Shown here piece by piece: positions 1 through 35,363 of a stretch of DNA of 64,000 nt (within the stretch, counting starts at the first letter, position 1; every line of letters begins with the position of its first letter). Under the pieces are notes generated by a model. It saw only the letters and a list, made by a program, of their open reading frames with translations, was not told the origin of the DNA and did no database searches. The stretch is from a virus. Both the position numbers and the translations under genes were made by a program. The stretch lies in the IMG/VR virus record IMGVR_UViG_3300027822_000294. The stretch is one strand, 5' to 3'.

Positions 1-968
1 TCTCAGGTAAATTTGTCAAAGATACAACTGTTGATAGTTGGTTGTCTTTTGCATTAAAACAAACGACTGCAAAACACGCTCTTTCTATTGTTAAATCTCA
101 ACGTAAAAAGAAGAAAAAAACTAAACCTACATTTAATAAATTAATAATGGAACTTGATTCAAGAGTTGTTAAAATTACACAAGATATAAATTCTTTTGAT
201 ATTTGGATTAAACTTTCAAATATTAGTAACATACTTGACAATAAATTTGGTAAAAGATTTAGTCTTAATTTACCTTCTAAGAAACATTTTCATTTCAATA
301 AATTTCTTGAAGATGGTTGGTTAATTAAAAAGTCAATTAGATTAAGAATAACTGAAAAGAGTTACTTTGTAGATATAATTTTTGAAAAGAAAGCTCCTAT
401 AATAAAAATTAAAGGTAAACAAAAAGCTATAGATATAGGATATAAAAAATTGATTGTAAGTTCTAGTGGTGAATTTATAGGTGATAATAAAATTTATGAA
501 AAAATATCAAGAAAGAAACAAGGAAGTAAAGCATTTAAAAGAGCATTGATAGAAAGAAATGAGTTAGTTAATATTTCTTGTAAGGCTTTAGATTTAACAA
601 ATGTTAAAGAACTTTTTGCAGAAGATTTAAAAAATGTTAAACATAAATCCAAAGGTAAAATACATAAAAAGTTTAATCATCAACTTCAACGGTGGGTGTA
701 TCCAAAAGTTTTGCAGAAGCTCGCTATGTTGTGTGAAGAGGAAGGAATTTTATTTAAGAAAATTCCACCTCAATATACAAGTCAAAGATGTAGTTGTTGC
801 GGAGAGATACATAAAAAAAGCAGAAAGAATGAGCTTTTTAAGTGTATCTCTTGTAATTTTGAGAGTGATGCGGATTATAATGCTTCACTCAATATTTTAC
901 ACATGGGACGATATGGTGTCCATGCTTTACAGCCTATTCTATGAACTAGCATAGGATAAAGCAACCAT
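1..968 (+). mobile_element. tnpB-only IS200/IS605-superfamily element, right end near 968
   Basis: Similarity among the three copies continues past the stop through a hairpin (CTATG-aactag-CATAG) to GCAACCAT, then stops. Confidence 0.7.
3..944 (+). CDS. tnpB: TnpB-family RNA-guided nuclease, 5'-truncated by the window edge (copy 1)
   Basis: Frame is open from position 3 (SGKFVKDTTVDSW...). RuvC D (AIDIGYK), E (AEDLKNV) and D (DADYNAS) plus CSCC...CISC zinc ribbon. Closely similar to 17533..18609. Confidence 0.9.
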   Translation, partial: SGKFVKDTTVDSWLSFALKQTTAKHALSIVKSQRKKKKKTKPTFNKLIMELDSRVVKITQDINSFDIWIKLSNISNILDNKFGKRFSLNLPSKKHFHFNKFLEDGWLIKKSIRLRITEKSYFVDIIFEKKAPIIKIKGKQKAIDIGYKKLIVSSSGEFIGDNKIYEKISRKKQGSKAFKRALIERNELVNISCKALDLTNVKELFAEDLKNVKHKSKGKIHKKFNHQLQRWVYPKVLQKLAMLCEEEGILFKKIPPQYTSQRCSCCGEIHKKSRKNELFKCISCNFESDADYNASLNILHMGRYGVHALQPIL

Positions 969-1755: not shown

Positions 1756-2202
1756 TCACCTCTCTATATTATTTTTATTTATATTATCGATTATCAATTT
1801 TCCCTGAGTGTGGTCAAATTCATGTTGAAACACCCTTGCTTTTGTATTAGATAATTTTTTTATATGTTCTTTTCCATTTTCATCTATATATTTAATTTTA
1901 ATTACAGTAAATCTTTTTTTATTATGGCAAGTGAAATAGGGAATACTTACACAACACTCATCTGCTACATTTTGTTCTTTACTATATTCTATAATCTCAG
2001 GATTGATAAAAGTTTTGTTTTTAATTACAAACATTGAATATAAATAGCCTATCTGGTTGGCTGTTAAGCCTAGCCAGTCATTATCTTTGCAAAAATTTTT
2101 CATTGTGTTTAAAACTCGGAAATGACTATTTGTGATAGTGTCTATCTTTTTTGTTTTTTGCATAAGTATCGGGTCGGGATACAATTTAATTGTTAAAAAC
2201 AT
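1756..2202 (-). CDS. def: Peptide deformylase
   Basis: Motifs GLTANQIG, ECCVSIP (EGCLS-like) and QHEFDH. Confidence 0.92.
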   Translation of the reverse strand: MFLTIKLYPDPILMQKTKKIDTITNSHFRVLNTMKNFCKDNDWLGLTANQIGYLYSMFVIKNKTFINPEIIEYSKEQNVADECCVSIPYFTCHNKKRFTVIKIKYIDENGKEHIKKLSNTKARVFQHEFDHTQGKLIIDNINKNNIER

Positions 2203-5941: not shown

Positions 5942-6346
5942 TTAATGTCTATACATTTCTGAAAATTCCACCATAAATTTAAACAGTCTTTCAAATTCTT
6001 TAGCAATATTCCCACCACTTAATACTATACTTATATAAACATTTCCCAATTCCATATCTTCTAAAGAAGATATTCTAATATAATCATTTTTAGTATAATT
6101 ATTATTGTCATAAATAAATAATTCTAATTTATTTTTAGCTTCTTTAACTTCCCAAAAATTTAACTTATCCAATAATGAATATAGACTCTCCATATCAGCT
6201 TTTACAGTATCAGAGTTGACCTCAAACCAAACTTTAGAAATTTCTTCTATATAAGCATCTAATAATCTAATATCCTTAATAATTTTATCTACACTATTCA
6301 TTAAATTATTGGTAGTTCTAATTAAATCTGTTTTCATTCTTGCCAT
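5942..6346 (-). CDS. Hypothetical protein, paralog of 7165..7524
   Basis: Shares DYIRISSLEDMELGNVY with DFIRLSSLDIIELATIY. Confidence 0.65.
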   Translation of the reverse strand: MARMKTDLIRTTNNLMNSVDKIIKDIRLLDAYIEEISKVWFEVNSDTVKADMESLYSLLDKLNFWEVKEAKNKLELFIYDNNNYTKNDYIRISSLEDMELGNVYISIVLSGGNIAKEFERLFKFMVEFSEMYRH

Positions 6347-6373
6347 TTTTTATATCTTCCTTATTATTTCTTT

Positions 6374-6541
6374 TTAATTAAACTTGCGAGAGTAGTATCG
6401 CAAAAAATCATCATCATCTATAAAAAACTTATTTTCTTCAATATCATCTAAAATCGCATCATCACTATAATTGATATTTACTAAAGTTTTCTTTAATGTA
6501 TCTAAATTTTGATATTCAAGTTTATTATAAAAATATGCCAT
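6374..6541 (-). CDS. Small hypothetical protein (likely start MAYFYNK at 6541)
   Basis: A G8 tract serves as SD 9 nt before the ATG. TATAAATA at 6600-6607. Confidence 0.45.
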   Translation of the reverse strand: MAYFYNKLEYQNLDTLKKTLVNINYSDDAILDDIEENKFFIDDDDFLRYYSRKFN

Positions 6542-6598
6542 GATAGTACACCCCCCCCATATTGAATAATTAAAAAGGTAGAAAACCATTATTTTCTT

Positions 6599-7084
6599 TT
6601 ATTTATAAACATGTCGTTTATTGAATATATTAGCATCTTTTACTACAATACTTCTGCCCAATCTTCGGATAATATTTTTATCATCATCAATTAAGTAATC
6701 AATATTTTCTTTACCAATTTTATTTGTTATAATATCATTTTTAAAAACCATTGCTTTCCTATAGTCTTTTTCGTTCCTCATAAATTTCTTATGTGGAACA
6801 GGTAAATTATTTCTTTTGAACCATAAATCGACCATTTTACCGTAGCTTTCGCCTTTACCAGTAACAATATACACTTGTTTTCCAGCGTCCATTTCTTTTT
6901 TGTAAAGGTTTACAGCTGGTAAAGGTTTCGAGTCTAATGTTTTATCGTGGTACGCATTAAATTCTTTTTCGCCATTTTTTGTTACACCAGCGAGATATTT
7001 AAACCTATCCTTATGGGAAATTAACGTGTTGTCGAGGTCGAACAATACTACTTTTGTTTCTTGTTTCTTCAAATTTTTTTTCAT
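6599..7084 (-). CDS. HAD-family phosphatase (PseT 3'-phosphatase-like)
   Basis: FDLDNTL motif I, VTG motif II, FK motif III, IDDD motif IV. Confidence 0.8.
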   Translation of the reverse strand: MKKNLKKQETKVVLFDLDNTLISHKDRFKYLAGVTKNGEKEFNAYHDKTLDSKPLPAVNLYKKEMDAGKQVYIVTGKGESYGKMVDLWFKRNNLPVPHKKFMRNEKDYRKAMVFKNDIITNKIGKENIDYLIDDDKNIIRRLGRSIVVKDANIFNKRHVYK

Positions 7085-7110
7085 AATAAACTTTCTCCTT
7101 TTCTTATCTT

Positions 7111-7146
7111 ATATTATATACTATCACACTTTTTTATGAATGTCAA
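7111..7146 (-). promoter_or_regulatory. Early (sigma70-type) promoter
   Basis: TTGACA-N17-TAGTAT(ATAATAT). Same motif at 7706-7733 and 28411-28439. Confidence 0.75.
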
Positions 7147-7164
7147 GTATTTTTTTCATTTATT

Positions 7165-7524
7165 TTAATTTATTTTTTCTATAAATTGAAGAATTTTATC
7201 CAATTCCATTGCCATTTCTCTACTTATAGCTTTTTCTATAATTATTATATCCGTATATATAGTCGCAAGTTCTATAATATCTAAAGAACTTAACCTAATA
7301 AAATCATCCCCATCATATATATATAAATCAAACCCTTCTTCCTTTTTATTTTCTCTTGGTTCAAAATATTTTATTTTTTCAAAAAGTTTATATAGTTCCT
7401 TAATATTTTCTTCTGTCCAATGGGAAGTATTATTTAACAATTCTCCTTCTATCCACCTAATATCTTCTATAATTTCTTCCAAAAGGTTTTTAATGCTATC
7501 TGTATAATTTGTAAAACTACCCAT
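7165..7524 (-). CDS. Hypothetical protein, paralog of 5942..6346
   Basis: SD AAGGAG, TATAAATA at 7554-7561, shared C-terminal motif. Confidence 0.65.
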   Translation of the reverse strand: MGSFTNYTDSIKNLLEEIIEDIRWIEGELLNNTSHWTEENIKELYKLFEKIKYFEPRENKKEEGFDLYIYDGDDFIRLSSLDIIELATIYTDIIIIEKAISREMAMELDKILQFIEKIN

Positions 7525-7563
7525 AATATTTTTCTCCTTATTATTCTTTTACTTATTTATATA

Positions 7564-7674
7564 TTATTTGGATAATAAACTAACTAAAAGATGTCCCATG
7601 AAATATACAATAAATAATATTATAACTATATTAAAAAACTTATCACAACCTTTTTCTACCTTAGATTTTTTCAT
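7564..7674 (-). CDS. Small single-TM protein (36 aa), absent from the ORF track
   Basis: MKKSKVEKGCDKFFNIVIILFIVYFMGHLLVSLLSK, with SD AAGGAG, directly after an early promoter. Confidence 0.65.
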   Translation of the reverse strand: MKKSKVEKGCDKFFNIVIILFIVYFMGHLLVSLLSK

Positions 7675-7699
7675 ATTTAACTCTCCTTTTTTCATCTTA

Positions 7700-7733
7700 T
7701 ATTATATACTATCATACTTTTTTTTGTTGTCAA
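7700..7733 (-). promoter_or_regulatory. Early (sigma70-type) promoter
   Basis: TTGACA-N16-TAGTATATAATATAAGAT, a near duplicate of the 7111-7146 promoter. Confidence 0.7.
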
Positions 7734-7747
7734 GTCTTTTTTAAAAT

Positions 7748-8761
7748 TTATTTTATTAAATGTTCAGCAATTTGTATAGCGTTCAAAGCTCCGCCCTTTA
7801 TAAGTTGGTCTCCGACCACCCAAAATGATAACCCTTTCTTTGTGGATAAATCTTTCCGTATCCTCCCCACATAGCAATTTTCTTTTCCAGCTACAAACAA
7901 TGGAGTAGGATATTCTGAATATTTTACTGTGTCATCTAGCAAAGTAATTCCCGGAGAATTTTTAAATATTTCCCTTGCCAGTTTTGGTGAAATTTTCTTC
8001 TTAGTTTCTATGGTTATTGACTCTGAATGTGCTGTTAGCACAGGTACTCTAACACAAGTCGCATTAACCGTAATATTTTCATCACCTAAAATTTTCCTTG
8101 TTTCATTAAACATTTTCATTTCTTCTTTTGTATATCCATTGTTCTTAAAATCATCAATTTGTGGAATTACATTAAATAATAATTGATGTTGAAAATATTT
8201 CCTACCAAAAGATACCCCCTCCGCATATTTTTTCGTTTGTGTTATAAGTTCAGCTAAACCCTTTTCGCCTGCTCCAGATGAAGCCTGATAGGTTGACACA
8301 ATAACTCTTTTTATTCTACTATAATCATACAAAGGTTTTAAGGCTACCAACATTATTATAGTGGTACAATTAGGATTTGCAATAATCCCCTTTGTATGTG
8401 TAAATATTTTTTCAGGATTAACTTCGGATATAATTAAAGGTACATCTTCATCCAACCTAAAAGCACTGGAATTGTCAATCACTATAGCACCAGAATTAAC
8501 TGCCTTATGAGCGTAATATTTACTGATAGTCGCTCCTGCGGAAAAAAATGCTAAATCTATATTTTTAAAACTATCCTTTTCTATAGATTTTACTTCATAT
8601 TCTTTACCACAATAAACAAGTTTTCTACCGATAGATTTTGGCGAAGCAAAAAGTGTTAATCCATCAACAGGGAAATTACGTTTTTCTAATAATGTTAAAA
8701 ATGTTTTGCCTACCGCTCCTGTTGCTCCAACAATAGCAAGATTTATTTTTGGTCTTCTCAT
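7748..8761 (-). CDS. asd: Aspartate-semialdehyde dehydrogenase
   Basis: GATGAVG, DNSSAFR, ANPNCTT (catalytic Cys), QASSGAG, CVRVPV..HSE, KGGALNAIQI. Confidence 0.95.
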   Translation of the reverse strand: MRRPKINLAIVGATGAVGKTFLTLLEKRNFPVDGLTLFASPKSIGRKLVYCGKEYEVKSIEKDSFKNIDLAFFSAGATISKYYAHKAVNSGAIVIDNSSAFRLDEDVPLIISEVNPEKIFTHTKGIIANPNCTTIIMLVALKPLYDYSRIKRVIVSTYQASSGAGEKGLAELITQTKKYAEGVSFGRKYFQHQLLFNVIPQIDDFKNNGYTKEEMKMFNETRKILGDENITVNATCVRVPVLTAHSESITIETKKKISPKLAREIFKNSPGITLLDDTVKYSEYPTPLFVAGKENCYVGRIRKDLSTKKGLSFWVVGDQLIKGGALNAIQIAEHLIK

Positions 8762-8762
8762 T

Positions 8763-9293
8763 TTAAATATCCCATGTTATTATATATTCAACATTTGGAA
8801 AACCTTTAGTTATCACAACTTTAGGATTTTTTACATTATACATCCCAAGTATCCCCAAATATACACCTTTACAAAGTTTTTGTGAAAAGTAGGGATTAGT
8901 GCCATGAATTACAACCCTGCCATTTATAGCTTCAACAAGTTTTTTTGGTCTTACCTCACGCCCTCTATGGTTTTTTAAAAATGTTTCTACTGAATATTTA
9001 AGCAAGTCTATTGGTGTTTTAATGTGGTTTGGCAATCCACCCATTCTTTTTATTTGAGGATACATACTTTTCCCTAAAGTAATTATTGCGTTTTCTTTTG
9101 TTATAGACGCTTCTGCGTATTTATCTATAAAAAGAGCAAACAATTTGGTATCATACCAACCTTCAGGATCTAGTTCGTTATAATGAAGCCCAACCCTTTT
9201 AAATAATTCATTATCAGCTTCTTTAAGACTATCTTTATATAATACCATTAACCTTCCACATAATATAATAAGTTTCCCTTTAGTTTCTGCCAC
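8763..9293 (-). CDS. V4R/HNOB-like small-ligand-binding-domain protein (tentative)
   Basis: GTG start with SD GAGGAGG inside the gp41 end. DPEGWY, NPY and KGVYLG pattern recalls V4R-like proteins. Confidence 0.45.
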   Translation of the reverse strand: MAETKGKLIILCGRLMVLYKDSLKEADNELFKRVGLHYNELDPEGWYDTKLFALFIDKYAEASITKENAIITLGKSMYPQIKRMGGLPNHIKTPIDLLKYSVETFLKNHRGREVRPKKLVEAINGRVVIHGTNPYFSQKLCKGVYLGILGMYNVKNPKVVITKGFPNVEYIITWDI

Positions 9294-9295
9294 GT

Positions 9296-10678
9296 TTAAC
9301 CCTCCTCTTGCAAAAGTTGTTTATAGTTTTTATTATTTTTTGGCATAGTAAAAGAATTAATGTCTTTATCATTTTCATTATCAATATTAAATAATCTTGA
9401 TTTTGACCTATCTATCCCAACTAAAAATTTTCTATGGAGGTAATCATCATTATACCGATTTTTTAATTGTTTTACCATTATTTGATTATTTTCTCTAAAT
9501 TCTTCATTATCAATAAAAGCTACATAAAAATCGGCTGTCTGTGGGATAGCATAAGACTCCCCTGTGTCTTCTAGCTCATAATCTGAACTATTACCTCTCT
9601 TGGTCTGTGTAGCTGTGAATAAAGGTACTTTATGCTCTACCGCAAATCCTCTTAACTCTTCAGCGACTTGTTTCCCATTGGAATATAAACCTACTGCTGG
9701 TCTTCTTGACGCACAAATATTTAAGTAATCAACAATAATAATCTCTGGTTTAAAATTTTTCTTAATTTTCAATTCTTTAAGCAAACTTTCAAAATGATTT
9801 ACGTTCCCTAATGATGTTGGATATTCCTTAATAAACAATTTTGATTTTAATTTTTGTTTTATTATATTAAATCTTGATTTATAGTCATCAACATTAAAAG
9901 CGTGTAATTCATTTTTCGTTACATTAAATATATTTTCATCAATCCTTTCAGCTATCTTATTCTCTGACATTTCAAGCGTGATATACAATACATTAAATCC
10001 TTGTCTTAAATAGTGCGAGGCTAAATGACAAAGAGTTATGGATTTACCAACTCCAGTCTTTGCCATAAATATATTGAGTGTTTTTTCTTCAAATCCCCCA
10101 TCTGTTATTAAATTTAATTCATCAATATCTGTAGGATATTTCTTTTCTTTATTTTTATATAAATTAAATCTCTGTTCAGCATCTTCGTTGTAATCATGTC
10201 CTACTGATGTGTCAAAAGTAACAGATAAAGCCTGTAACATCACATCTACAATATTATCTTTGGTTTCTTTTTTGCCATTTTCAGCAATATCTATACATTC
10301 TATCAAAGCATTATATACAGCTTTATCATAACAAAATTTCTCTGATTTTTGTATTAAATACTCTTCATCTAATTTGACTTCAAGATTATAAATTTCTTCA
10401 AGTAAAGTCTTTATATCTGTTATCTGTTTTTCATCAATAATTAGTATTTTATTTTCTTTTAAAAATGTATCATCTTCCAAGCATAATAAAATTGTTTCAA
10501 AAGATGGCGTATTACTATACCTTTCTGAATAGCTTTTTATTATAGAAAAAATTAGATGAACATTAAAATCCACCAAAAAATAATTCTTTTTAAGGAAAGG
10601 TAATACCATTCTTGCGTATCTGTCATCAGTAATAAGTTTATTTAAAATATAAAATTCAAATTTAATGTCTTTAATCAT
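9296..10678 (-). CDS. gp41: Replicative helicase gp41
   Basis: Walker A AKTGVGKS, LYITLEMSE, IVDYLNI, ATQT, QLKNRY. Confidence 0.93.
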   Translation of the reverse strand: MIKDIKFEFYILNKLITDDRYARMVLPFLKKNYFLVDFNVHLIFSIIKSYSERYSNTPSFETILLCLEDDTFLKENKILIIDEKQITDIKTLLEEIYNLEVKLDEEYLIQKSEKFCYDKAVYNALIECIDIAENGKKETKDNIVDVMLQALSVTFDTSVGHDYNEDAEQRFNLYKNKEKKYPTDIDELNLITDGGFEEKTLNIFMAKTGVGKSITLCHLASHYLRQGFNVLYITLEMSENKIAERIDENIFNVTKNELHAFNVDDYKSRFNIIKQKLKSKLFIKEYPTSLGNVNHFESLLKELKIKKNFKPEIIIVDYLNICASRRPAVGLYSNGKQVAEELRGFAVEHKVPLFTATQTKRGNSSDYELEDTGESYAIPQTADFYVAFIDNEEFRENNQIMVKQLKNRYNDDYLHRKFLVGIDRSKSRLFNIDNENDKDINSFTMPKNNKNYKQLLQEEG

Positions 10679-10698
10679 TATTATAACTCCATTATTTG

Positions 10699-11727
10699 TT
10701 ATACATTATTTTTATCGTTTAAATATTTCATTATAATAAAATTTTTTGCTTGTTTATTATATTTCTTTTTTGGATTTTCTAAATCTTTACTTTTATCAAT
10801 TTCCTGTAATCTTTTTTGTGTTATATTTATTGCCAACTCTCCATTATCACAACCAACCCAACAACGACCGAGTTTTTCAGCAACAGTAAGTGTCGTACCA
10901 CTACCACAGAAAAAATCCATTACTAAATCACCTTTATTTGTGGATACTTTTATTATCCTCTCTAAAAGTTTTTCGGGTTTTTGTGTTGGATAACCAATTA
11001 GTTCACTCCTATATTTTTCTGTTGCCCAAATATCTATCCACCAATCTTCTACTTTTTTACCCTTATTTTCTAATTCTTTTAACAACTCCTTATTTTTCCT
11101 TTCCTTGTTTTTAAACATGATTCCTGTATTACTTAAACCATGTTTATATGAAATATATTGAAGATTGAATAAATTATTTTTTGTTTTTGTATAAAATAGA
11201 ATATAATCGTGTTTTCTTGGAAAATATTTCATTACTTTTCCGGGTCCAGTATAGCACCAAACAATTTCATTTCTAAAATTCTTTTCACCAAAAATTTCAT
11301 CCATTAAAACCTTTATATAATGCCCTTTTCTATAATCTAAATGTACGAAAATACTACCATCATCAGATAAAATTTCTTTTGCTAAAATGAGTCTTCTTCT
11401 TAAAAACTCTATAAATTCTGCTCCTTGCAATTTATCTATATATGCTTTTTGTCCATCACTCCCTTTAAAATTATTTTTTGTTCCAAAAGGTGGGTCTATA
11501 TATATTAGTTTTACTTTATCTTTTATTTTATCTTTAATTAAAAAGTCTTTATTTTCGTAAATCGTTTTTAAAAATTGAAGATTATCACCAAAAACAAGTA
11601 TATCTTCCCATGACACATCACTATCATTATTAAAAGTTTTTTCTATTTGTAAAGAAACAGGAAATATACCATCTTTATTAGCAAATAAATCTTCTTTAAG
11701 TATTTTATTATTATATACCAAATCCAT
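10699..11727 (-). CDS. Orphan DNA amino-methyltransferase (beta class, N6_N4_Mtase)
   Basis: YIDPPF catalytic motif, YPTQKPEKLLERII, DFFCGSGTT. Confidence 0.9.
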   Translation of the reverse strand: MDLVYNNKILKEDLFANKDGIFPVSLQIEKTFNNDSDVSWEDILVFGDNLQFLKTIYENKDFLIKDKIKDKVKLIYIDPPFGTKNNFKGSDGQKAYIDKLQGAEFIEFLRRRLILAKEILSDDGSIFVHLDYRKGHYIKVLMDEIFGEKNFRNEIVWCYTGPGKVMKYFPRKHDYILFYTKTKNNLFNLQYISYKHGLSNTGIMFKNKERKNKELLKELENKGKKVEDWWIDIWATEKYRSELIGYPTQKPEKLLERIIKVSTNKGDLVMDFFCGSGTTLTVAEKLGRCWVGCDNGELAINITQKRLQEIDKSKDLENPKKKYNKQAKNFIIMKYLNDKNNV

Positions 11728-12770
11728 TATAAATTATTCCCGAAAATTTTTTGGACAAGTGGTTCAAGTGTTTTAAGAAATTCAGATGTAAAATATTTTT
11801 CTGGATTTTCGTTAATATGTTTTTCAAAAACTTTTTCGCCACTAGGAAATTCATACCTTGTAGATGTTTTTGTAATTAATCCAACTTCTTCAGCAATATT
11901 AACTAATCCATAATATCTATCAAGTGGTTTTCCGTATTTTAATAAAAGACTCACTTTTTTATTTTCTTTTGTAAATCTTGATTTATATGTTTTTGCAGAA
12001 AATATAATCCCTATAGTTTCTTTTGCTGTACTCCCTTTTAAATATTTTTTTGTAAGTTCTATTATACTACTTGAAGCATATTTTATTCCCATCCCTCCAG
12101 ATATTTCGTTTCTTGGAATATATGAACCAATGGCAGAATATGTGTGATTTGTTATTAAAAATGGTACATTTGCTTTGCCAAGATGAAGTGTCAACGTTCT
12201 AAACACGCCCTTTATCTTCTGTGCCCTTGTCATATCTCTTTTATCAGCACCTTTCATTGTGTCCTCTGTTTCTTTAGAAGTGGATAGCATGCCTAAACTG
12301 TCAAGACACAACATTAAAGGTGGTCTTTTTTGTTTTTTCTTTCCTTCTTCTTCTTCATCAAAATTATCGTAACAATCTAATACTTTTAAAATCTCTGAGC
12401 CTAATTCTTCAACCGTTGATACCTGTTGAATTATAAATCTTTTTGTATCAATACCTCTACTTACTAATAATTTATTTGTTAAAGCATTTTCTGTTTCAAA
12501 GTAATAAACAACCCCATCTTTTGATTGTTCTAAAAATGACCTACAAGCAGTCAATACAAGGAAGGTTTTGCCTGTTCCTTCTTGTCCAACAAGTGCTGTA
12601 ATTTTATTCTGTGGAATACCACCGAAAAGACTACCACTTAATAATACATTAAATGCGTAACTTCCTGAGTCTATGAACTTATTCGTATCTCCATAAATCC
12701 CTTCTGACGCAACATTAACAAAAGGATTTTCTGATATTTTAAGTAATTTGTCAATAAAACTTTCTGACAT
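11727..12770 (-). CDS. uvsX: RecA-like recombinase UvsX
   Basis: DSGSYAFN..LSG, GQEGTGKT, DSLGML, DMTRAQ, NHTY, SGGMG. Confidence 0.93.
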   Translation of the reverse strand: MSESFIDKLLKISENPFVNVASEGIYGDTNKFIDSGSYAFNVLLSGSLFGGIPQNKITALVGQEGTGKTFLVLTACRSFLEQSKDGVVYYFETENALTNKLLVSRGIDTKRFIIQQVSTVEELGSEILKVLDCYDNFDEEEEGKKKQKRPPLMLCLDSLGMLSTSKETEDTMKGADKRDMTRAQKIKGVFRTLTLHLGKANVPFLITNHTYSAIGSYIPRNEISGGMGIKYASSSIIELTKKYLKGSTAKETIGIIFSAKTYKSRFTKENKKVSLLLKYGKPLDRYYGLVNIAEEVGLITKTSTRYEFPSGEKVFEKHINENPEKYFTSEFLKTLEPLVQKIFGNNL

Positions 12771-12782
12771 TAAAACCTCCCA

Positions 12783-13754
12783 CTATAATATTTTTAATAT
12801 TTCTAAACCATTGCTTGCTAGACCACAACTATAATAGTTACCCATCATATAAAATCTAAAATCATCTGTCAACCTTAAATTATTATTTTGTTGCAACCCA
12901 TATAATAATATGGTTTCACCTTTATTTATATTCAACTCTTTAAATTTATTTAAAGAAAGTATGTCCATATCAGACATATTTTCAATATATTTAACATTTT
13001 TTATTTTTTTTAATACTTCATTCTTAAATCTTTCTACTGTTATTTTTTCCTTTAATTTTATTGATACCATAATATTAACAACATTTTGTGGAGTATTGAA
13101 AGAAACACTCCCTAAAATTGTAATTCTGGATTTAATATTTAATAACAGTTTTATTTCAGTTTGTAAACGCTTTTCTTCTGCTTGACAACATTTTGATTTT
13201 TTATTTATTGTTTCTGTATTAAATTTTATAAAAGAATTATCAAAATTATTTACAGAAACTAGAGGATTTTTAGTATTCGTTTCACATACTACCAATACTT
13301 TTATAATAACTCCAAAATTATGTTTAATGCCATTTAAAACTTTTGATATGATAATTCCCACACTAGACGGAGAACCTATAATTGGATAATCTTTCTCTAT
13401 TATATCAATGTTTTTAATTTTTGGTATGATTACAGGAATATTATTATATTCTTTAATATATTGTATATTACCTGTTATATCTAAAATTTTTATATCTTTA
13501 TTAGACAAAAAAATAGATAGATGTTCTTTTGATAAAAATTCTGATTGACAAATTATTATTATATTAGATTTATTTATTTTTCTTTTTTCAAAAAATTCTA
13601 TAGAAATATCATAACCTCTTAATTTTACTTTCATAATAATATCATTTTCTTTTTGTAAACAAAACAACCTAATATCATTATATAAAAATTTTTCTTTTTC
13701 AAGAATATCTAAAAAAGCTCCACCTAGCTCTGTATTTGCTCCTAACACTGCCAT
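12783..13754 (-). CDS. Degenerate Asd-like protein (probable pseudoenzyme)
   Basis: Collinear with Asd (VLGANTELG, IIGSPSS for IANPNC, EEKRLQTEIK..L, GLASNGLEI). Catalytic Cys and RVPV..H are absent. Confidence 0.7.
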   Translation of the reverse strand: MAVLGANTELGGAFLDILEKEKFLYNDIRLFCLQKENDIIMKVKLRGYDISIEFFEKRKINKSNIIIICQSEFLSKEHLSIFLSNKDIKILDITGNIQYIKEYNNIPVIIPKIKNIDIIEKDYPIIGSPSSVGIIISKVLNGIKHNFGVIIKVLVVCETNTKNPLVSVNNFDNSFIKFNTETINKKSKCCQAEEKRLQTEIKLLLNIKSRITILGSVSFNTPQNVVNIMVSIKLKEKITVERFKNEVLKKIKNVKYIENMSDMDILSLNKFKELNINKGETILLYGLQQNNNLRLTDDFRFYMMGNYYSCGLASNGLEILKIL

Positions 13755-13780
13755 GTTAAAAATATTTATTTCGACACCTC

Positions 13781-16375
13781 CTATCTTTTTAAAAATGTCA
13801 ACTGATTTTTGTTAAGGTGTTTGTTCATCATTATTAAATCCAACCCCAACACTTTTCCTATCATATCAATTTGTTCTACGAAAGTTTTTTCAAATTCTGT
13901 GTCATAGTCAATATAATTTATTAACTCAAACTCTTTGGGTATTTTTGAATGAAAAGCAATAACATTCATGTTCCAAATATTGGGTTTTAAATATACCATT
14001 TTTATCTTATCACCTTCTTTAATTTTATCGTATTTATTTTCAATTTTATAGTAATCTATTAAATGATTATAAAATAAAGCACCTTTTATATGAAATCCGC
14101 TCCCCTTTCTATATATCGTATTTTTATCTGAATATTTTTTTAAGTGATTGATTGATTTTGCCCTGCTTATTTCATTATGTGGAAGTTTTTTAAAAATAGT
14201 TTTAGTCTCTTTTATATATTTTTTTAAATCTATCTTTATATTGTCAATATTATCTTCTTCCGATAAAAAATATTCTTTTATGACATTTATTATTCTTTCT
14301 TTACAAAATGGTGGTATCCAAGAACTAATGGCAGATATACCTACCATTTTTAATTTCTTTTCTCTTATACCTTCATCATCAACAATAGATAATATATATC
14401 TTTTCTTTGCTAAAAATATCCCCTTATCTGCGATAACTTCTCTTTTCATTACAATTCTATTTTCATAACTATTTAATTTTATAGCAATTTTTTTAGCGTC
14501 CTGAACAATTATTTTTTGTATCTCTGGTGAAACTTTTTTATCTAAAAAATTTATAATCTTTTCTTTACCCTTTAACTTTAATTTTTCTATAAATTCATCA
14601 AATCTAACATAAATTGAGTCTGTGTCCATAGCAACAATATAATCTTCTTTTTCTTTATTTAGAATAGTTTTAATATAATTATTTACACTATTTTCTATGC
14701 TCTTTATTATATATTGCCCGGTAGATGTTACGCTTTCAGCAAGTTTAATATTAAAGAATTTAAACCATATACAACCTAAAGCTCCGTACAAAGAATTTAA
14801 TTGTATTTTTTTAATATGTTGATAGCTGGAATAATAATCCGCTCTAATTTTATATTTTTCTAATTTAGTATCAATATATTTTTTATTATTATCTTTACTC
14901 AATCTTTTACATCTTTGACGTTCTTTATAAATTTCCTTTATTAACGTTGGAAGTATTCCACAAGTTTCTTTTGTATATTCAACAGAATTAAGAGTAAATG
15001 TAACATTTTTTTCTTTTAGATATTCATTTCTTGTTTTTATTTCTTCTTCGCTTTCATTTTCAATATCATTCGGGTTTATTATTTTACTATATTCTTGTGG
15101 ACAATATGTCTCAAACGAAATATTTTGCTGGACAATTATATTAGGATAAAGTGAGTCAATATCAAACGCCATTATCCATAAATATTTGTTGGGGATAACT
15201 TCTTTGACATAAGCACCAATATATTCACTGTCTTCATTATTAGTATATGTATTATATAACATTACTAATTTATGTTTTTTATAATATTTGAATATAATCT
15301 GTTCCCACATCTTTGTTGGGAGTAATACATTATCGTAAGGCATAACAGCGTCATAAATTAAATGTAGTACCATATCCATAAATTTTAATTTTTTATCTAA
15401 TTTATTAACCAAAGCAACATCTTGAATATTATATTTAACATATAAATCATAATTTTCTTCGTATAAGTTATTTAAACTGAGATAATCATTACTATATTCA
15501 ATCTTTCCTTCGCCCAATTCTATTTGTGAAATACTATCCAAAGAGTATGAAGGTCTATTTTTAAATATATATTTTTTATATATAGATAAATAATCAAATA
15601 TTGTAACACCTGCTATTGTATAATATTTTGTAATTTGTTTTGTTCCAAATACATATTGGGATTTTGTATGTTCTTTAATAACTCCCCAAGAACTTAGCCC
15701 TAACCATAAATTTTTATATGCTGTAGAAAATTTAAAAACTCTTTTCATCCGGTTAATTAAGTATGTTATATCAAAATCTCCAACATTCCATCCAGTTACA
15801 ATATCTACGTTTAAAGATTGCCATACTTCAATAAATTTTTTTAATAATTCTTTTTCATCTTTACAAAAAATATAAGTGGTATCTTCTTCAATAGATTTAT
15901 CCTGTATGGGTCTCAATCCAAGTGTTATAAATTTTTCATCATCACCTTTATATAAATTGCCTAGCGTGATAAGACATAATGGAGCGAGTGCGTCTTCCGG
16001 TTTAGGAAAACCATCTTGCGATACAACTTCTATATCTATATTGATTATATTAAGACAAGGTTTAATTTTTTCTACATCAAATTTTGTTTCAGCGTAATTA
16101 TCTGCTAACCAACATGACCTAAAATCTTTATTCCCATACAACTTATAATTAGAAATATCTTGATATTTCTTAACATAAGCATAATAATCATAAATTGATG
16201 TGAATGTATGTTTTTTTAATTTGTGTTTTGTGATAGGCTCATAATAAAAACCTTCGTTATCTTCCATAAAAATTGATGGTTCATATTTAACCTTTGTATA
16301 TACATCTTTATTATTTTTATATTCTTTAGTTAATAAATAATTTTTTTCTAAAAAAACATTTTTATAAAACTTCAT
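13781..16375 (-). CDS. gp43: Family B DNA polymerase gp43
   Basis: IDIEV exonuclease motif, DIDSLYP, KIQLNSLYG, DTDSIY. SD GGAGGTG favours a start at 16375. Confidence 0.95.
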   Translation of the reverse strand: MKFYKNVFLEKNYLLTKEYKNNKDVYTKVKYEPSIFMEDNEGFYYEPITKHKLKKHTFTSIYDYYAYVKKYQDISNYKLYGNKDFRSCWLADNYAETKFDVEKIKPCLNIINIDIEVVSQDGFPKPEDALAPLCLITLGNLYKGDDEKFITLGLRPIQDKSIEEDTTYIFCKDEKELLKKFIEVWQSLNVDIVTGWNVGDFDITYLINRMKRVFKFSTAYKNLWLGLSSWGVIKEHTKSQYVFGTKQITKYYTIAGVTIFDYLSIYKKYIFKNRPSYSLDSISQIELGEGKIEYSNDYLSLNNLYEENYDLYVKYNIQDVALVNKLDKKLKFMDMVLHLIYDAVMPYDNVLLPTKMWEQIIFKYYKKHKLVMLYNTYTNNEDSEYIGAYVKEVIPNKYLWIMAFDIDSLYPNIIVQQNISFETYCPQEYSKIINPNDIENESEEEIKTRNEYLKEKNVTFTLNSVEYTKETCGILPTLIKEIYKERQRCKRLSKDNNKKYIDTKLEKYKIRADYYSSYQHIKKIQLNSLYGALGCIWFKFFNIKLAESVTSTGQYIIKSIENSVNNYIKTILNKEKEDYIVAMDTDSIYVRFDEFIEKLKLKGKEKIINFLDKKVSPEIQKIIVQDAKKIAIKLNSYENRIVMKREVIADKGIFLAKKRYILSIVDDEGIREKKLKMVGISAISSWIPPFCKERIINVIKEYFLSEEDNIDNIKIDLKKYIKETKTIFKKLPHNEISRAKSINHLKKYSDKNTIYRKGSGFHIKGALFYNHLIDYYKIENKYDKIKEGDKIKMVYLKPNIWNMNVIAFHSKIPKEFELINYIDYDTEFEKTFVEQIDMIGKVLGLDLIMMNKHLNKNQLTFLKR

Positions 16376-16433
16376 AAAACACCTCCCATTCACATAATAA
16401 TATTCTTTTTACGCAACAAGTCAAGTCATAATT

Positions 16434-17509: not shown

Positions 17510-18642
17510 ATGGTTGCCCTTCCTATAAAATTTTATAGAATTGGCTTTTGTAAGGCATGGACATCATATTGTCCCATGTGTAATATATTAAGTGAAGCAT
17601 TATAATCGGCATCACTCTCAAAATTACAAGAAACACAACAAAAAAGCTCATTCTTTCTGCTTTTCTTATGTATCTCTCCACAACAACTACATCTTTGACT
17701 TGTATATTGAGGTGGGATTTTCTTAAATAAAATTCCACTCTCTTCACACAACATAGCGAGCTTTCTCAAACATTGAGAATACACCCACCGTTGAAGTCGA
17801 TTGTTAAACTTTTTATGTATTTTGCCTTTAGATTTATGTTTAACATTTTTTAAATCTTCGACATATAAACTTTTAACATTTATTAAATCTAAACTTTTAC
17901 ATGATAAATTAACTAGCTCATCACGTTCTATTAAAGCACGTTTAAAAGCCTTACTACCTTGTTTCTTTCTTGATATTTTTTCATAAATTTTATTATCACC
18001 TATAAATTCTTTATCTGAACTTACAATCAATTTTTTATATCCTATATCAACAGCTTTTTGTTTACCTTTAGTTTTTATTATGGGAGCTTCTTTTTCAAAA
18101 ATTATATCAGCAAAATAACCTTTTTCATTTATTCTTAATCTAATTGATTTTTTAATTGTCCATCCGTCTTGTAAAAATTTATTAAAATGTATATGCTTTT
18201 TGGATGGTAAATTAAGACTAAATCTTTTACCAAACTTATTATCAATTTTATTACTAACAGTTAAAAGTTTAACCCAAATATCAAAAGAATTTATATCTTG
18301 TGTAATTTTAATAACTCTTGAATCAAGTTCCATTATAAGTTTATTTAATGTAGGTTTAGATTTTTTCTTTTTCTTACGTTGTGGTTTAATAATAGAAAGA
18401 GCATGTTTTGAAGCTGTTTGTTTTAAACAAGCGGATAACCAACTATCAACAGTTGTATCTTTGACAAAACTGCCTGAAAATTGTTGCTGTTCCCAAAGTC
18501 TATCTATAAATATATTAACAACTCTTTGATATTCTTCAGCAATTATCTTTAATTTTTCAAGTTTACCTTTATTAACAAATTTAAGATTTATTGTTGACTT
18601 TCTTATCATCTTTATTAAACCTCTTAATATATTCTATTTATA
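17510..18642 (-). mobile_element. tnpB-only element between regA and the dUTPase-like gene
   Basis: Right end GCAACCAT at 17517-17510. TATAAATA at 18635-18642 on the left side. Confidence 0.7.
17533..18609 (-). CDS. tnpB: TnpB-family nuclease (copy 2, full length)
   Basis: 358 aa. AVDIGYK, VEDLKNV, DADYNAS and zinc ribbon are intact. Confidence 0.92.
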   Translation of the reverse strand: MIRKSTINLKFVNKGKLEKLKIIAEEYQRVVNIFIDRLWEQQQFSGSFVKDTTVDSWLSACLKQTASKHALSIIKPQRKKKKKSKPTLNKLIMELDSRVIKITQDINSFDIWVKLLTVSNKIDNKFGKRFSLNLPSKKHIHFNKFLQDGWTIKKSIRLRINEKGYFADIIFEKEAPIIKTKGKQKAVDIGYKKLIVSSDKEFIGDNKIYEKISRKKQGSKAFKRALIERDELVNLSCKSLDLINVKSLYVEDLKNVKHKSKGKIHKKFNNRLQRWVYSQCLRKLAMLCEESGILFKKIPPQYTSQRCSCCGEIHKKSRKNELFCCVSCNFESDADYNASLNILHMGQYDVHALQKPIL

Positions 18643-34286: not shown

Positions 34287-35363
34287 ATGATAAGAAAATC
34301 AACATTAAATCTCAAGTTTGCCAATAAAGGTAAACTTAAAAAATTAAAGATAATTGCTGAAGAATATAAAAGAGTTGTCAATATCTTTATAGATAGACTT
34401 TGGAGAGAACAACAGTTTATAGGTAAGTTTGTTAAAGATACAACTGTTGATAGTTGGTTGTCTGCTTGTTTAAAACAAACAGCTTCAAAACAAGCTCTTT
34501 CTATTGTTAAATCTCAACGTAAGAAAAAGAAAAAATCTAAACCTACATTAATAAATTTATTATGGAACTTGATTCAAGAGTTGTTGAAATAACACAACTT
34601 AATGAACATTTTGATATATGGATAAAATTATCTTCTATAAGTAATAAAATTGATAATAAGTTTGGTAAAAGATTTAGTCTTAATTTACCTTCTAAAAAAC
34701 ATATACATTTTAATAAATTTCTTGAAGATGGTTGGTTAATTAAAAAGTCAATTAGGTTAAGAATAAATGAAAAAGGATATTATGTAGATGTATTTTTTGA
34801 AAAAAAAAGCTCCTACATTAAAAATTGAAGGTAAACAAAAAGCTGTTGATATAGGGTACAAGAAATTGATTGTAAGTTCAGATAAAGAATTTATTGGATA
34901 TTTTAAAATATATGAAAAAATATCAAGAAAGAAACAAGGAAGTAAGGCTTTTAAAAGAGCATTGATAGAACGTAACGAACTGGTTAATGTTTCATGTAAG
35001 GCTTTAAATTTAACAAATGTTAAAAAACTTTTTGCAGAAGATTTAAAAAATGTTAAACATAAATCTAAAGGTAAAATACATAAAAAGTTTAATAATCGAC
35101 TTCAACGGTGGAGTTATGTAAAAGTTTTACAGAAGCTCACTATGTTGTGTGAAGAGGAAGGGATTTTATTTAAGAAAGTTCCACCTCAATATACAAGTCA
35201 AAGATGTAGTTGTTGTGGAGAAATACATAAGGAAAGCAGAAAGAATGAGCTTTTTAAGTGTGTTTCTTGTAATTTTGAGAGTGATGCGGATTATAATGCT
35301 TCACTCAATATTTTACATATAGGACAATATGGTGCCTATGCCTTACAAAAGCCAATTCTATAA
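34287..35363 (+). pseudogene. tnpB: TnpB copy 3, broken by two frameshifts
   Basis: 1-nt loss near 34551 and 1-nt gain in the A9 run at 34800-34808 relative to copy 2. TATAAATA at 34271-34278. Right end near 35386. Confidence 0.85.

What the first reader, a model, noticed from the sequence alone, without database searches (positions are those of the whole stretch)
7748..13754. Active Asd plus a catalytically dead Asd paralog embedded in the replication operon
Seen: gp43 - dead Asd-like - uvsX - MTase - gp41 - V4R-like - intact asd, all co-oriented with gaps of about 0-26 nt. The paralog has SPSS instead of NPNC and lacks RVPV..H. Known: Asd makes aspartate semialdehyde, the branch point to DAP/Lys, Thr, Met (SAM) and diaminobutyrate, and it is a homodimer. 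In T4 the uvsX-gp43 interval holds DNA-modification genes. Inference: either an auxiliary module boosting Met/SAM for five methyltransferases or supplying a base-modifying or polyamine precursor, or a pseudoenzyme that heterodimerises with phage or host Asd to redirect flux, e.g. starving peptidoglycan of DAP. An enzyme/pseudoenzyme Asd pair in a phage is not something I recognise.
Basis: partly seen in the sequence, partly recalled or inferred. Interest (0 to 1): 0.8.

Follow-up and report, generated by a model that had tools for sequence, protein, structure and literature searches.

The report
Phage Asd plus dead Asd-fold paralog
An uncultured, very AT-rich T4-like marine phage carries, inside its DNA-replication gene cluster, an apparently working copy of the amino-acid-pathway enzyme aspartate-semialdehyde dehydrogenase taken from a bacterium, plus a second orphan protein that keeps the same fold but has lost the catalytic residues; what the second protein does is unknown.

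Summary
On the minus strand, with gaps of -1 to 26 nt, lie gp43 polymerase, a 323-aa Asd-like ORF (P0001), UvsX, a DNA methyltransferase, gp41 helicase, a 176-aa DUF2378/V4R-like ORF (P0003) and a 337-aa Asd (P0002).

- **P0002** is a canonical short (asd_B) Asd. It passes the curated cut-offs and keeps 50 of 53 family-conserved positions, including the Cys, Gln, Arg and His. Its nearest relatives (66-67% identity) are chromosomal Asds of a 34-35% GC bacterium in the same and a sibling assembly. Three assemblies agree on its junctions, so it is a phage-resident auxiliary metabolic gene, not a chimera.
- **P0001** has the full-length Asd fold (hhalign 95%, Atlas model TM 0.77). It keeps only 15 of 53 conserved positions. 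Cys is replaced by Ser, there is no His in the catalytic domain, and the NADP glycine motif is degraded. It has no relative among 1.8 billion representative proteins.

Selection clearly keeps the P0001 frame open. Whether it pairs with Asd is untested; the complex prediction gave no verdict. About 90 related T4-like loci have neither gene. This scan had noted dead Asd-fold proteins in bacteria before, but not in a phage.

Verdict: a real and unusual variant of a known kind, of moderate interest.

The parts
13781..16393 (-). gp43-type family B DNA polymerase, first gene of the block
   Evidence: PF03104 at 2.7e-23 and PF00136 at 1.5e-22
12783..13754 (-). P0001, 323 aa: an Asd-fold protein that lacks the catalytic Cys, Gln and His and has a degraded NADP motif (an orphan pseudoenzyme candidate)
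   Evidence: NCBIfam asd gives 2.6e-10 but only 39.9 bits against a cut-off of 223. hhalign against an Asd profile gives 95% probability and E 4e-8 over residues 1-322. The ESM Atlas's own model matches Asd at TM 0.77. The AF2 model has pLDDT 79, and Foldseek's top hits are Asd structures at TM 0.70-0.72. It keeps 15 of 53 conserved columns. No relatives were found.
11727..12770 (-). UvsX/RecA-like recombinase
   Evidence: PF00154 at 3.2e-12. Cyanophage and pelagiphage uvsX genes match at the DNA level. A GGGAGG Shine-Dalgarno sequence lies 5 nt before the ATG.
10699..11727 (-). N6/N4 DNA methyltransferase
   Evidence: PF01555 at 1.1e-53
9296..10678 (-). gp41-type DnaB-like replicative helicase
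   Evidence: PF03796 at 9.1e-19. Cyanophage gp41 genes match at the DNA level.
8763..9293 (-). P0003, 176 aa: a DUF2378/V4R-like small protein of bacterial origin, with its stop codon 1 nt before the asd ATG
   Evidence: No Pfam hit even at E 10. Protein-language-model features match DUF2378 clusters at 0.94. Homologs of 42-73% identity exist. The 65% one lies on a bacterial chromosomal contig, and the 42% one lies between a chemoreceptor (MCP) gene and a response-regulator gene. A strong GAGGAGGG Shine-Dalgarno sequence precedes the GTG start.
7748..8761 (-). P0002, 337 aa: a canonical short-type aspartate-semialdehyde dehydrogenase (asd_B), a host-derived auxiliary metabolic gene
   Evidence: NF011456 scores 463 bits (cut-off 223) and TIGR01296 scores 454.5 bits (cut-off 324.2). 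PF01118 and PF02774 both match. It keeps 50 of 53 conserved columns. Its nearest relatives are 66-67% identical bacterial Asds. A Logan contig at depth 43 spans 6000-9120 without a single difference.
16397..16424 (-). sigma-70-like promoter match in the gap upstream of gp43 (a consensus match only)
   Evidence: TTGACT-16-TATTAT, 10 of 12 positions. Such scans are weak evidence in DNA this AT-rich.
7706..7733 (-). sigma-70-like promoter match just after the asd stop codon, marking the probable end of the block (a consensus match only)
   Evidence: TTGACA-16-TAGTAT with a TG extension

Best explanation
**Shown.** The window belongs to an uncultured T4-like myophage of 26% GC. At the 3' end of its gp43-uvsX-gp41 replication block it carries two genes captured from bacteria: P0003, a DUF2378/V4R-like small protein, and P0002, a fully canonical short-type Asd. 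Between gp43 and uvsX it also carries P0001. P0001 keeps the complete two-domain Asd fold but has lost the nucleophile Cys (now Ser), the active-site Gln, the acid/base His, the middle glycine of the NADP-binding GxxGxxG motif and the SAG motif.

**Inferred.**
- P0002 works as a normal NADPH-dependent ASADH. It is expressed with the replication genes and keeps aspartate semialdehyde available in the infected cell. Aspartate semialdehyde is the branch point to Lys/DAP, Thr and Met/SAM.
- P0001 cannot carry out that reaction. It is a non-catalytic Asd-derived protein kept by selection. Its most likely role is binding or regulation connected to the aspartate-semialdehyde node, either by associating with an Asd subunit (phage or host) or by binding an Asd ligand.

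My odds: P0002 is an active Asd, about 0.85. P0001 is non-catalytic for the ASADH reaction, about 0.85. P0001's role is Asd-linked, about 0.35.
For: **P0002.**
- It passes the curated equivalog cut-offs and has every catalytic residue.
- Its GC3 of 0.20 lies within the phage's range of 0.12-0.27 and below the 0.26-0.27 of its nearest bacterial homologs.
- It is contiguous with phage genes in three assemblies.
- In the tree it joins P0004/P0005 from the same sample (SH-aLRT 84), inside a well-supported clade that includes the Deferribacterota Asds. P0139, from the same 90% cluster as P0004, sits next to glutamate synthase on a bacterial contig.

**P0001.**
- It is a full-length Asd homolog by profile and by fold.
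- It keeps 15 of 53 conserved positions, against 48-53 in real Asds.
- It has no His after residue 145.
- The chance of so long an open frame in this composition is about 7e-17.
- It is confidently folded (Atlas pTM 0.79).
- The EE-x-R/K-xxx-E helix and the Lys at the Arg102 position are retained. This is compatible with residual ligand binding.

**Linkage.** Asd-family genes are very rare in phage DNA. None was found next to uvsX in 93 related loci. In IMG/VR a GIIANPNC motif scan found only five, all at contig ends. Two in one 6-kb block therefore argues for an evolutionary or functional link.
Against: - There is no experimental or expression evidence, and only one study holds the phage.
- P0001 has no homologs, so selection cannot be measured by dN/dS.
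- P0001 is separated from asd by four genes and is not specifically similar to P0002 (17 bits against 42 bits for the best bacterial Asd).
- The alignment around the Arg/His strand differs between methods, so loss of the substrate-binding Arg is probable but not certain.
- No downstream pathway gene in the window indicates which product of aspartate semialdehyde matters.
Confidence: 0.5

Rival explanations
1. P0001 has a role unrelated to aspartate metabolism. It would be an old Asd-derived scaffold recruited as an accessory of replication or recombination, for example binding nucleic acid or protein. This fits its slot between gp43 and uvsX. Asd itself would be a separate, later AMG acquisition.
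For: - It lies between the polymerase and the recombinase, four genes away from asd.
- It has the lowest GC3 of the block (0.12), which suggests long residence.
- It has no special similarity to P0002.
- It is basic, with pI 9.2. P0002 is basic too.
Against: - Two genes of a family that is nearly absent from phages, lying in one block, are unlikely to be functionally independent.
- No nucleic-acid-binding motif or family hit was found.
Confidence: 0.25
2. P0001 is still an enzyme with different chemistry or a different substrate. It would be a neofunctionalised Asd-fold oxidoreductase or hydrolase that uses Ser131 or the nearby Cys157.
For: - Ser replaces Cys at the nucleophile position, and Cys157 lies next to the former Gln position.
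- The Glu and basic residues of the substrate pocket appear to be kept.
- From my own knowledge, not checked here: an E. coli Asd C135S mutant was reported to keep trace activity.
Against: - There is no His anywhere in the catalytic domain.
- The dinucleotide-binding glycine is replaced by Thr, and the SAG and DNSS motifs are lost.
- 38 of 53 conserved positions are changed.
- The region after the former Gln position (residues 161-185) has indels relative to Asd and low model confidence.
Confidence: 0.12
3. P0001 is a functionless relic of an older asd copy that was replaced by the newer P0002.
For: Extreme divergence and loss of all catalytic motifs. It is an orphan.
Against: - A 323-codon open frame in DNA with 11% stop-codon probability per codon cannot persist by chance (about 7e-17).
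- The protein is still predicted to fold as Asd from its single sequence.
- It is tightly packed between essential genes.
Confidence: 0.08
4. The asd gene, or the whole arrangement, is an assembly chimera with host DNA.
For: All evidence comes from a single metagenomic study. The assemblies disagree elsewhere, at the TnpB repeats.
Against: - The gene order is identical in three assemblers' contigs, and one Logan contig at even depth crosses both asd junctions.
- asd is only 67% identical to its nearest known homolog, and its codon composition is phage-like.
- The stop of P0003 lies 1 nt before the asd start.
Confidence: 0.02

Closest known systems
Short-type aspartate-semialdehyde dehydrogenase (asd_B; TIGR01296 / NF011456; structures such as V. 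cholerae Asd2 2QZ9/2R00 and S. pneumoniae 2GZ1)
   Same: P0002 is a member in every testable respect. P0001 shares the full two-domain fold and is collinear with the family.
   Different: P0002 is encoded inside a T4-like phage replication cluster. P0001 scores far below the family cut-offs and lacks the Cys, Gln, His and NADP glycine motif.
Bacterial Asd-like paralogs of unknown function (USG-1/PRK08040 and PRK06901 'oxidoreductase'), and the catalytically dead Asd-fold families that this scan noted earlier in gut Alphaproteobacteria (next to mscK) and in Acidobacteriota (in lipid operons)
   Same: These are Asd-fold proteins kept beside, or instead of, a true Asd. By the earlier AI notes, several have lost the Cys/His and the NADP motif (not checked here).
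   Different: P0001 matches none of these models. No bacterial protein is closer to it than ordinary Asds in an exhaustive search. It sits in a phage, with no channel or lipid gene beside it.
'Prozyme'-type pseudoenzyme partners, such as the trypanosomatid AdoMetDC prozyme (from my own knowledge)
   Same: A dead paralog is co-encoded with an active enzyme of the same dimeric family.
   Different: No evidence of a heteromer was obtained here (one search gave no verdict). The two proteins share only about 20% identity.
Auxiliary metabolic genes of marine T4-like myophages
   Same: A host-derived metabolic gene is embedded among core phage genes. The same window also carries a peptide deformylase and a ribonucleotide reductase.
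   Different: Asd was not found as an internal gene in IMG/VR by a profile-derived scan or a motif scan, nor near uvsX in 93 related loci. The searched literature has no report of it.

Membership tests
Aspartate-semialdehyde dehydrogenase, asd_B type (P0002) | Score above the curated equivalog cut-offs | tested here: met
   NF011456 scores 463.2 bits against 223. TIGR01296 scores 454.5 bits against 324.2.
Aspartate-semialdehyde dehydrogenase, asd_B type (P0002) | Catalytic Cys (NPNC), Gln (STYQ), Arg and His (RVPV..H), the phosphate-binding Arg102, the EE-x-K helix and the GxxGxxG NADP motif | tested here: met
   All are present. It keeps 50 of 53 conserved columns, within the 48-53 range of bacterial Asds.
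Aspartate-semialdehyde dehydrogenase, asd_B type (P0002) | ASADH activity, or complementation of an asd mutant | not testable with these tools
   Needs an experiment.
Aspartate-semialdehyde dehydrogenase (P0001) | Two-domain Asd fold, collinear with the family | tested here: met
   hhalign gives 95% probability and E 4e-8 over residues 1-322. The Atlas model matches at TM 0.77. Foldseek's top hits are all Asd.
Aspartate-semialdehyde dehydrogenase (P0001) | Score above the curated cut-offs | tested here: not met
   39.9 bits against 223 for NF011456. Pfam PF01118 scores 21.5 bits against 26, and PF02774 is not detected.
Aspartate-semialdehyde dehydrogenase (P0001) | Catalytic Cys and His, active-site Gln, NADP-binding glycine motif | tested here: not met
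   The Cys is replaced by Ser131 and the Gln by Glu158 (Thr159 in the hhalign register). There is no His after residue 145. GATGxVG reads GANTELG, and SAG reads CQS.
Enzyme/pseudoenzyme ('prozyme'-like) pair | An inactive paralog encoded together with an active family member | tested here: met
   Both lie in one co-oriented 8.6-kb block.
Enzyme/pseudoenzyme ('prozyme'-like) pair | Physical heteromer that changes the activity of the active partner | tested here: inconclusive
   Complex prediction returned no verdict. Activity cannot be tested here.
Phage auxiliary metabolic gene | A metabolic gene of cellular origin flanked on both sides by phage genes on one verified contig | tested here: met
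   gp41 lies upstream and gp13 and other phage genes lie downstream. Three assemblies agree. The nearest homologs are bacterial and chromosomal.
T4-like myophage (Straboviridae-like core) | Core genes gp43, uvsX, gp41, gp44/62, gp46/47, gp32, uvsY, regA, baseplate and terminase | tested here: met
   Pfam hits.

The most novel reading that the evidence does not exclude
P0001 is a virus-encoded 'prozyme'. It would be a dead Asd subunit that pairs with the phage's own Asd or the host's Asd, or that senses aspartyl phosphate or aspartate semialdehyde. By doing so it would reset flux at the aspartate-semialdehyde branch point during infection. This would be the first enzyme/pseudoenzyme pair described in a phage.
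Probability: 0.2. Interest if true: 0.8.

Novelty: new variant of a known kind. Interest (0 to 1): 0.55.

Why it matters
Asd sits at the branch point to lysine/DAP, threonine and methionine/SAM. A phage that brings its own copy points to that node as limiting during infection of its marine host, a low-GC bacterium whose Asd is near those of Deferribacterota.

The accompanying protein keeps the fold but has lost the catalytic residues. It is a clean, experimentally tractable case for asking how viruses reuse enzyme scaffolds. Together with the dead Asd-fold proteins this scan noted in bacteria, it suggests the Asd fold is recruited again and again for non-catalytic roles.

The case rests on one metagenomic lineage, and no function has been shown.

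Tried and rejected
- **Heterodimer prediction.** Complex prediction of P0002 with P0001, using my own alignments, scored 0.00. No controls were run, so this is no verdict, neither for nor against binding.
- **Single-sequence AF2 of P0001.** It failed (pLDDT 37). The later model (pLDDT 79) used an MSA of true Asds and so leans towards the Asd fold. The independent support for the fold is the Atlas's own model and hhalign.
- **Relatives of P0001.** The word-indexed search found only P0001 itself. The IMG/VR scan found none. Exhaustive phmmer over 1.84 billion representatives returned only low-complexity hits and the N-terminal halves of ordinary Asds.
- **An 'SPSS' family.** One truncated bacterial Asd (P0127, in a Deltaproteobacteria MAG) also has SPSS at the nucleophile box but is otherwise canonical. 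Among 80 genome loci no other case was found, and L048 was a false alarm.
- **Binatota genomes.** The weak PF01118 hits are not Asd-like.
- **Relatives of the phage.** 55 IMG/VR loci and 38 metagenome loci have UvsX at 34-57% identity. None has Asd, P0001 or P0003.
- **Asd in viral contigs.** A scan with patterns taken from the Asd alignment found none. A GIIANPNC scan found five, all within about 1 kb of contig ends, so probably host flanks of prophages. Asd hits in GenBank 'phage' records are mostly small unannotated fragments, large unannotated records and bacterial WGS contigs filed among phages.
- **Literature.** Searches for phage Asd, for Asd pseudoenzymes and for the sample accessions found nothing relevant.
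- **Host taxon.** The taxon of the candidate host contigs could not be named with the tools left.
- **Promoter and terminator scans.** They are uninformative in DNA this AT-rich (104 promoter matches against 81 expected).
Full report
**What is there.**

The window is 26% GC throughout. Its core genes mark a T4-like myophage: gp43, UvsX, gp41, gp44/62, regA, UvsY, gp46/47, gp32, RNR, terminase, baseplate and PAAR. At the DNA level only conserved stretches of uvsX and gp41 match cyanophages and Pelagibacter phage HTVC008M, at 65-70% identity.

On the minus strand the ORFs run in this order:

| Coordinates | Gene |
|---|---|
| 13781-16393 | gp43 |
| 12783-13754 | P0001 |
| 11727-12770 | UvsX |
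| 10699-11727 | N6_N4 methyltransferase |
| 9296-10678 | gp41 |
| 8763-9293 | P0003 |
| 7748-8761 | P0002 |

The gaps between them are 26, 12, -1, 20, 2 and 1 nt. Good Shine-Dalgarno sequences precede uvsX and P0003, and the P0003 stop lies 1 nt before the asd ATG.

**The intact Asd (P0002).**

P0002 scores 463 bits on NF011456 (cut-off 223) and 454.5 bits on TIGR01296 (cut-off 324.2). It has both Pfam domains. It keeps ANPNC, STYQ, the EE-x-K helix, RVPV..H and GATGAVG. Of 53 columns that are at least 90% conserved in 36 diverse bacterial Asds it keeps 50; bona fide Asds keep 48-53.

Its nearest relatives are P0004 and P0005, at 66-67% identity, from the same sample. Next come Deferribacterota Asds at 60-63%.

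In a quick ML tree the phage Asd joins P0004/P0005 with SH-aLRT 84. They sit inside a well-supported clade (97) that contains the Deferribacter, Geovibrio and Seleniivibrio Asds. The phage branch is long, 0.45 against a median of 0.13. The careful search was not finished, so I treat the exact sister relation as moderate evidence.

P0139, a member of the same 90% cluster as P0004, sits on a 30-kb bacterial contig next to glutamate synthase and cstA, in a sibling assembly. That contig has 34-35% GC. The phage gene is therefore of bacterial origin, from a lineage present at the same site, which makes that lineage a candidate host.

**Not a chimera.**

- GC3 of asd is 0.20. This is inside the phage's range of 0.12-0.27 and below the 0.26-0.27 of the bacterial homologs.
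- The same order, gp41-P0003-asd-downstream phage genes, occurs in an ENA MEGAHIT contig.
- A Logan contig at depth 43 runs from 6000 to 9120 with no difference.
- Another Logan contig covers the stretch from M15 through gp43, P0001, uvsX and the MTase to gp41.
- All of this comes from one study, so it shows independent assembly, not independent sampling.

**The dead Asd-fold protein (P0001).**

Sequence evidence:
- Pfam gives only a sub-threshold match to the NAD-binding domain (21.5 bits, cut-off 26).
- NCBIfam asd models match residues 1-149 at 2.6e-10.
- BLASTP against P0002 gives 23% identity over 155 residues, E 4e-6.

Fold evidence:
- Profile comparison with an Asd alignment gives 95% probability and E 4e-8, collinear over residues 1-322.
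- The ESM Atlas's own single-sequence model (pTM 0.79) superposes on Asd clusters at TM 0.77 over 296 residues.
- An AF2 model built with an Asd MSA has pLDDT 79. Its Foldseek hits are all Asd structures, at TM 0.70-0.72. This model leans on the MSA, so the Atlas model is the independent support.

Loss of catalytic features:
- P0001 keeps 15 of the 53 conserved columns.
- ANPNC reads GSPSS, so the Cys is replaced by Ser131.
- The Gln of STYQ is Glu158 in the MAFFT alignment, or Thr159 in the hhalign register.
- GATGxVG reads GANTELG, SAG reads CQS and DNSSAFR reads DITGNIQYIK.
- The only two His are at residues 78 and 145, so the acid/base His is absent under any alignment.

The three alignment methods disagree on the strand that carries the substrate Arg. 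The spacing from the EE helix to the next helix is the same as in P0002, and residues 215-228 contain no basic residue. I therefore consider the Arg probably lost.

Retained features are Lys at the Arg102 position, the E193-E194-x-R196-xxx-E200 helix, Asn179 and the C-terminal G-x-A-x-N helix.

**Is P0001 a live gene?**

With 11% stop probability per codon in this composition, a 323-codon open frame has a chance of about 7e-17. The protein is also still predicted to fold. I conclude it is under selection as a protein.

dN/dS cannot be computed because there are no relatives:
- The indexed search found only P0001 itself.
- The exhaustive search of 1.84 billion representatives gave only low-complexity hits and the N-terminal parts of ordinary Asds at E of about 1e-4.
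- IMG/VR gave nothing.

**Origin of P0001.**

It is of the asd_B type. It is not specifically close to P0002: 17 bits, rank 81 of 200, against 42 bits for the best bacterial Asd and 30 bits for P0004/P0005. Its GC3 of 0.12 is the lowest in the block.

Either it is a much older acquisition or duplicate, or saturation has erased the signal. The data do not decide.

**P0003.**

- It has no Pfam hit even at E 10.
- Protein-language-model features place it with DUF2378 clusters at 0.94, with 205-209 shared features.
- It has bacterial homologs.
- The 65% homolog lies on a 49-kb chromosomal contig with parAB, tpiA and secG, at 35% GC, in the same sibling assembly as P0139.
- A 42% homolog lies between a chemoreceptor gene and a response-regulator gene.

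So P0003 is a second captured bacterial gene, of a probable small sensory or ligand-binding type. In the bacterial contigs seen, it is not adjacent to asd.

**Rarity.**

- None of 55 IMG/VR loci or 38 metagenome loci with UvsX at 34-57% identity encodes Asd, P0001 or P0003.
- A scan of IMG/VR with patterns taken from the Asd alignment found none.
- A GIIANPNC motif scan found five, all within about 1 kb of contig ends, so probably host flanks.
- A PHROG of unknown function (27440) does match Asd, so Asd-like genes are not wholly absent from phage collections.
- I found no paper on phage Asd or on Asd pseudoenzymes.
- Earlier notes of this scan describe dead Asd-fold proteins in bacteria, next to mscK or in lipid operons. 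I could not test a relation to them. The exhaustive search argues that none is detectably close to P0001.

**Mechanism.**

*Shown:* an intact asd and a catalytically stripped Asd-fold gene lie in one co-oriented, tightly packed block that starts at gp43. A sigma-70-like match lies upstream of gp43 and another lies just after asd (weak evidence).

*Inferred:*
- P0002 supplies ASADH activity during infection.
- Which product matters (Met/SAM for the five methyltransferases, Lys/DAP or Thr) is open. No aspartokinase, homoserine dehydrogenase, DAP, polyamine or base-hypermodification gene shows up in the window's Pfam annotation.
- P0001 cannot perform the reaction. Its role may be Asd-linked, as a partner subunit or ligand binder (about 0.35). 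It may be unrelated, for example a replication accessory (about 0.25). It may be new chemistry (about 0.12), or a relic (about 0.08).
- The one complex prediction gave no verdict.

**Verdict.**

The finding is real and unusual, and it gives a well-defined object for experiments. It rests on a single metagenomic lineage, and the central mechanistic idea (a heteromer) is untested. I class it as a new variant of known kinds: a phage AMG plus a pseudoenzyme paralog.

Noticed in passing
window 1-944, 17533-18609 and 34287-35363; loci L001, L005, L152: The ENA assembly joins the unique segments differently at the TnpB copies. In it, the RNR side is joined through copy 3 to the 140-aa/M15/gp43 side. 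The 270-aa gene is joined through an inverted TnpB copy to regA-gp62-gp44. This is either repeat-driven misassembly or genuine genome isomers produced by recombination between TnpB copies. The gp43-to-asd block lies inside one unique segment in all assemblies.
   Followed up: partly
L154 (P0131) and L157 (P0139), 34-35% GC bacterial contigs of a sibling assembly: The closest homologs of both captured genes lie on chromosomal contigs of similar GC from one assembly: P0003 at 65% identity, and P0139, which is in the same 90% cluster as the 67%-identical P0004. This may be the host lineage. Its Asd branches next to the Deferribacterota Asds. The taxon was not determined.
   Followed up: partly
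L009/L010 (P0127), MAG contig JADYYL010000145.1: A truncated bacterial Asd has SSPSS in place of ANPNC, the same three substitutions as P0001. It keeps a canonical NADP motif and DxSSAFR. The contig ends at residue 154. No other such case was found among 80 genome loci.
   Followed up: partly
window 7564-7695 (-): A small ORF (36-43 aa, depending on which start is used) with a hydrophobic core follows the sigma-70-like promoter just after asd. It has a good AAAGGAGAG Shine-Dalgarno sequence before the second ATG.
   Followed up: no
window 1756-2202 (-): A peptide deformylase gene (PF01327) lies between two TnpB genes. It is another AMG in the same phage.
   Followed up: no
window 13775-13782 (-): The AGGAGGTG Shine-Dalgarno-like sequence overlapping the gp43 stop codon lies 20-22 nt upstream of the P0001 ATG, which is unusually far. 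Translation initiation of P0001 may need local RNA structure, or may be weak.
   Followed up: no
window 6599-7084 (-): A stand-alone HAD/PNKP-type phosphatase domain protein (PF25109) lies about 0.7 kb downstream of asd. No link to aspartyl phosphate was tested.
   Followed up: no
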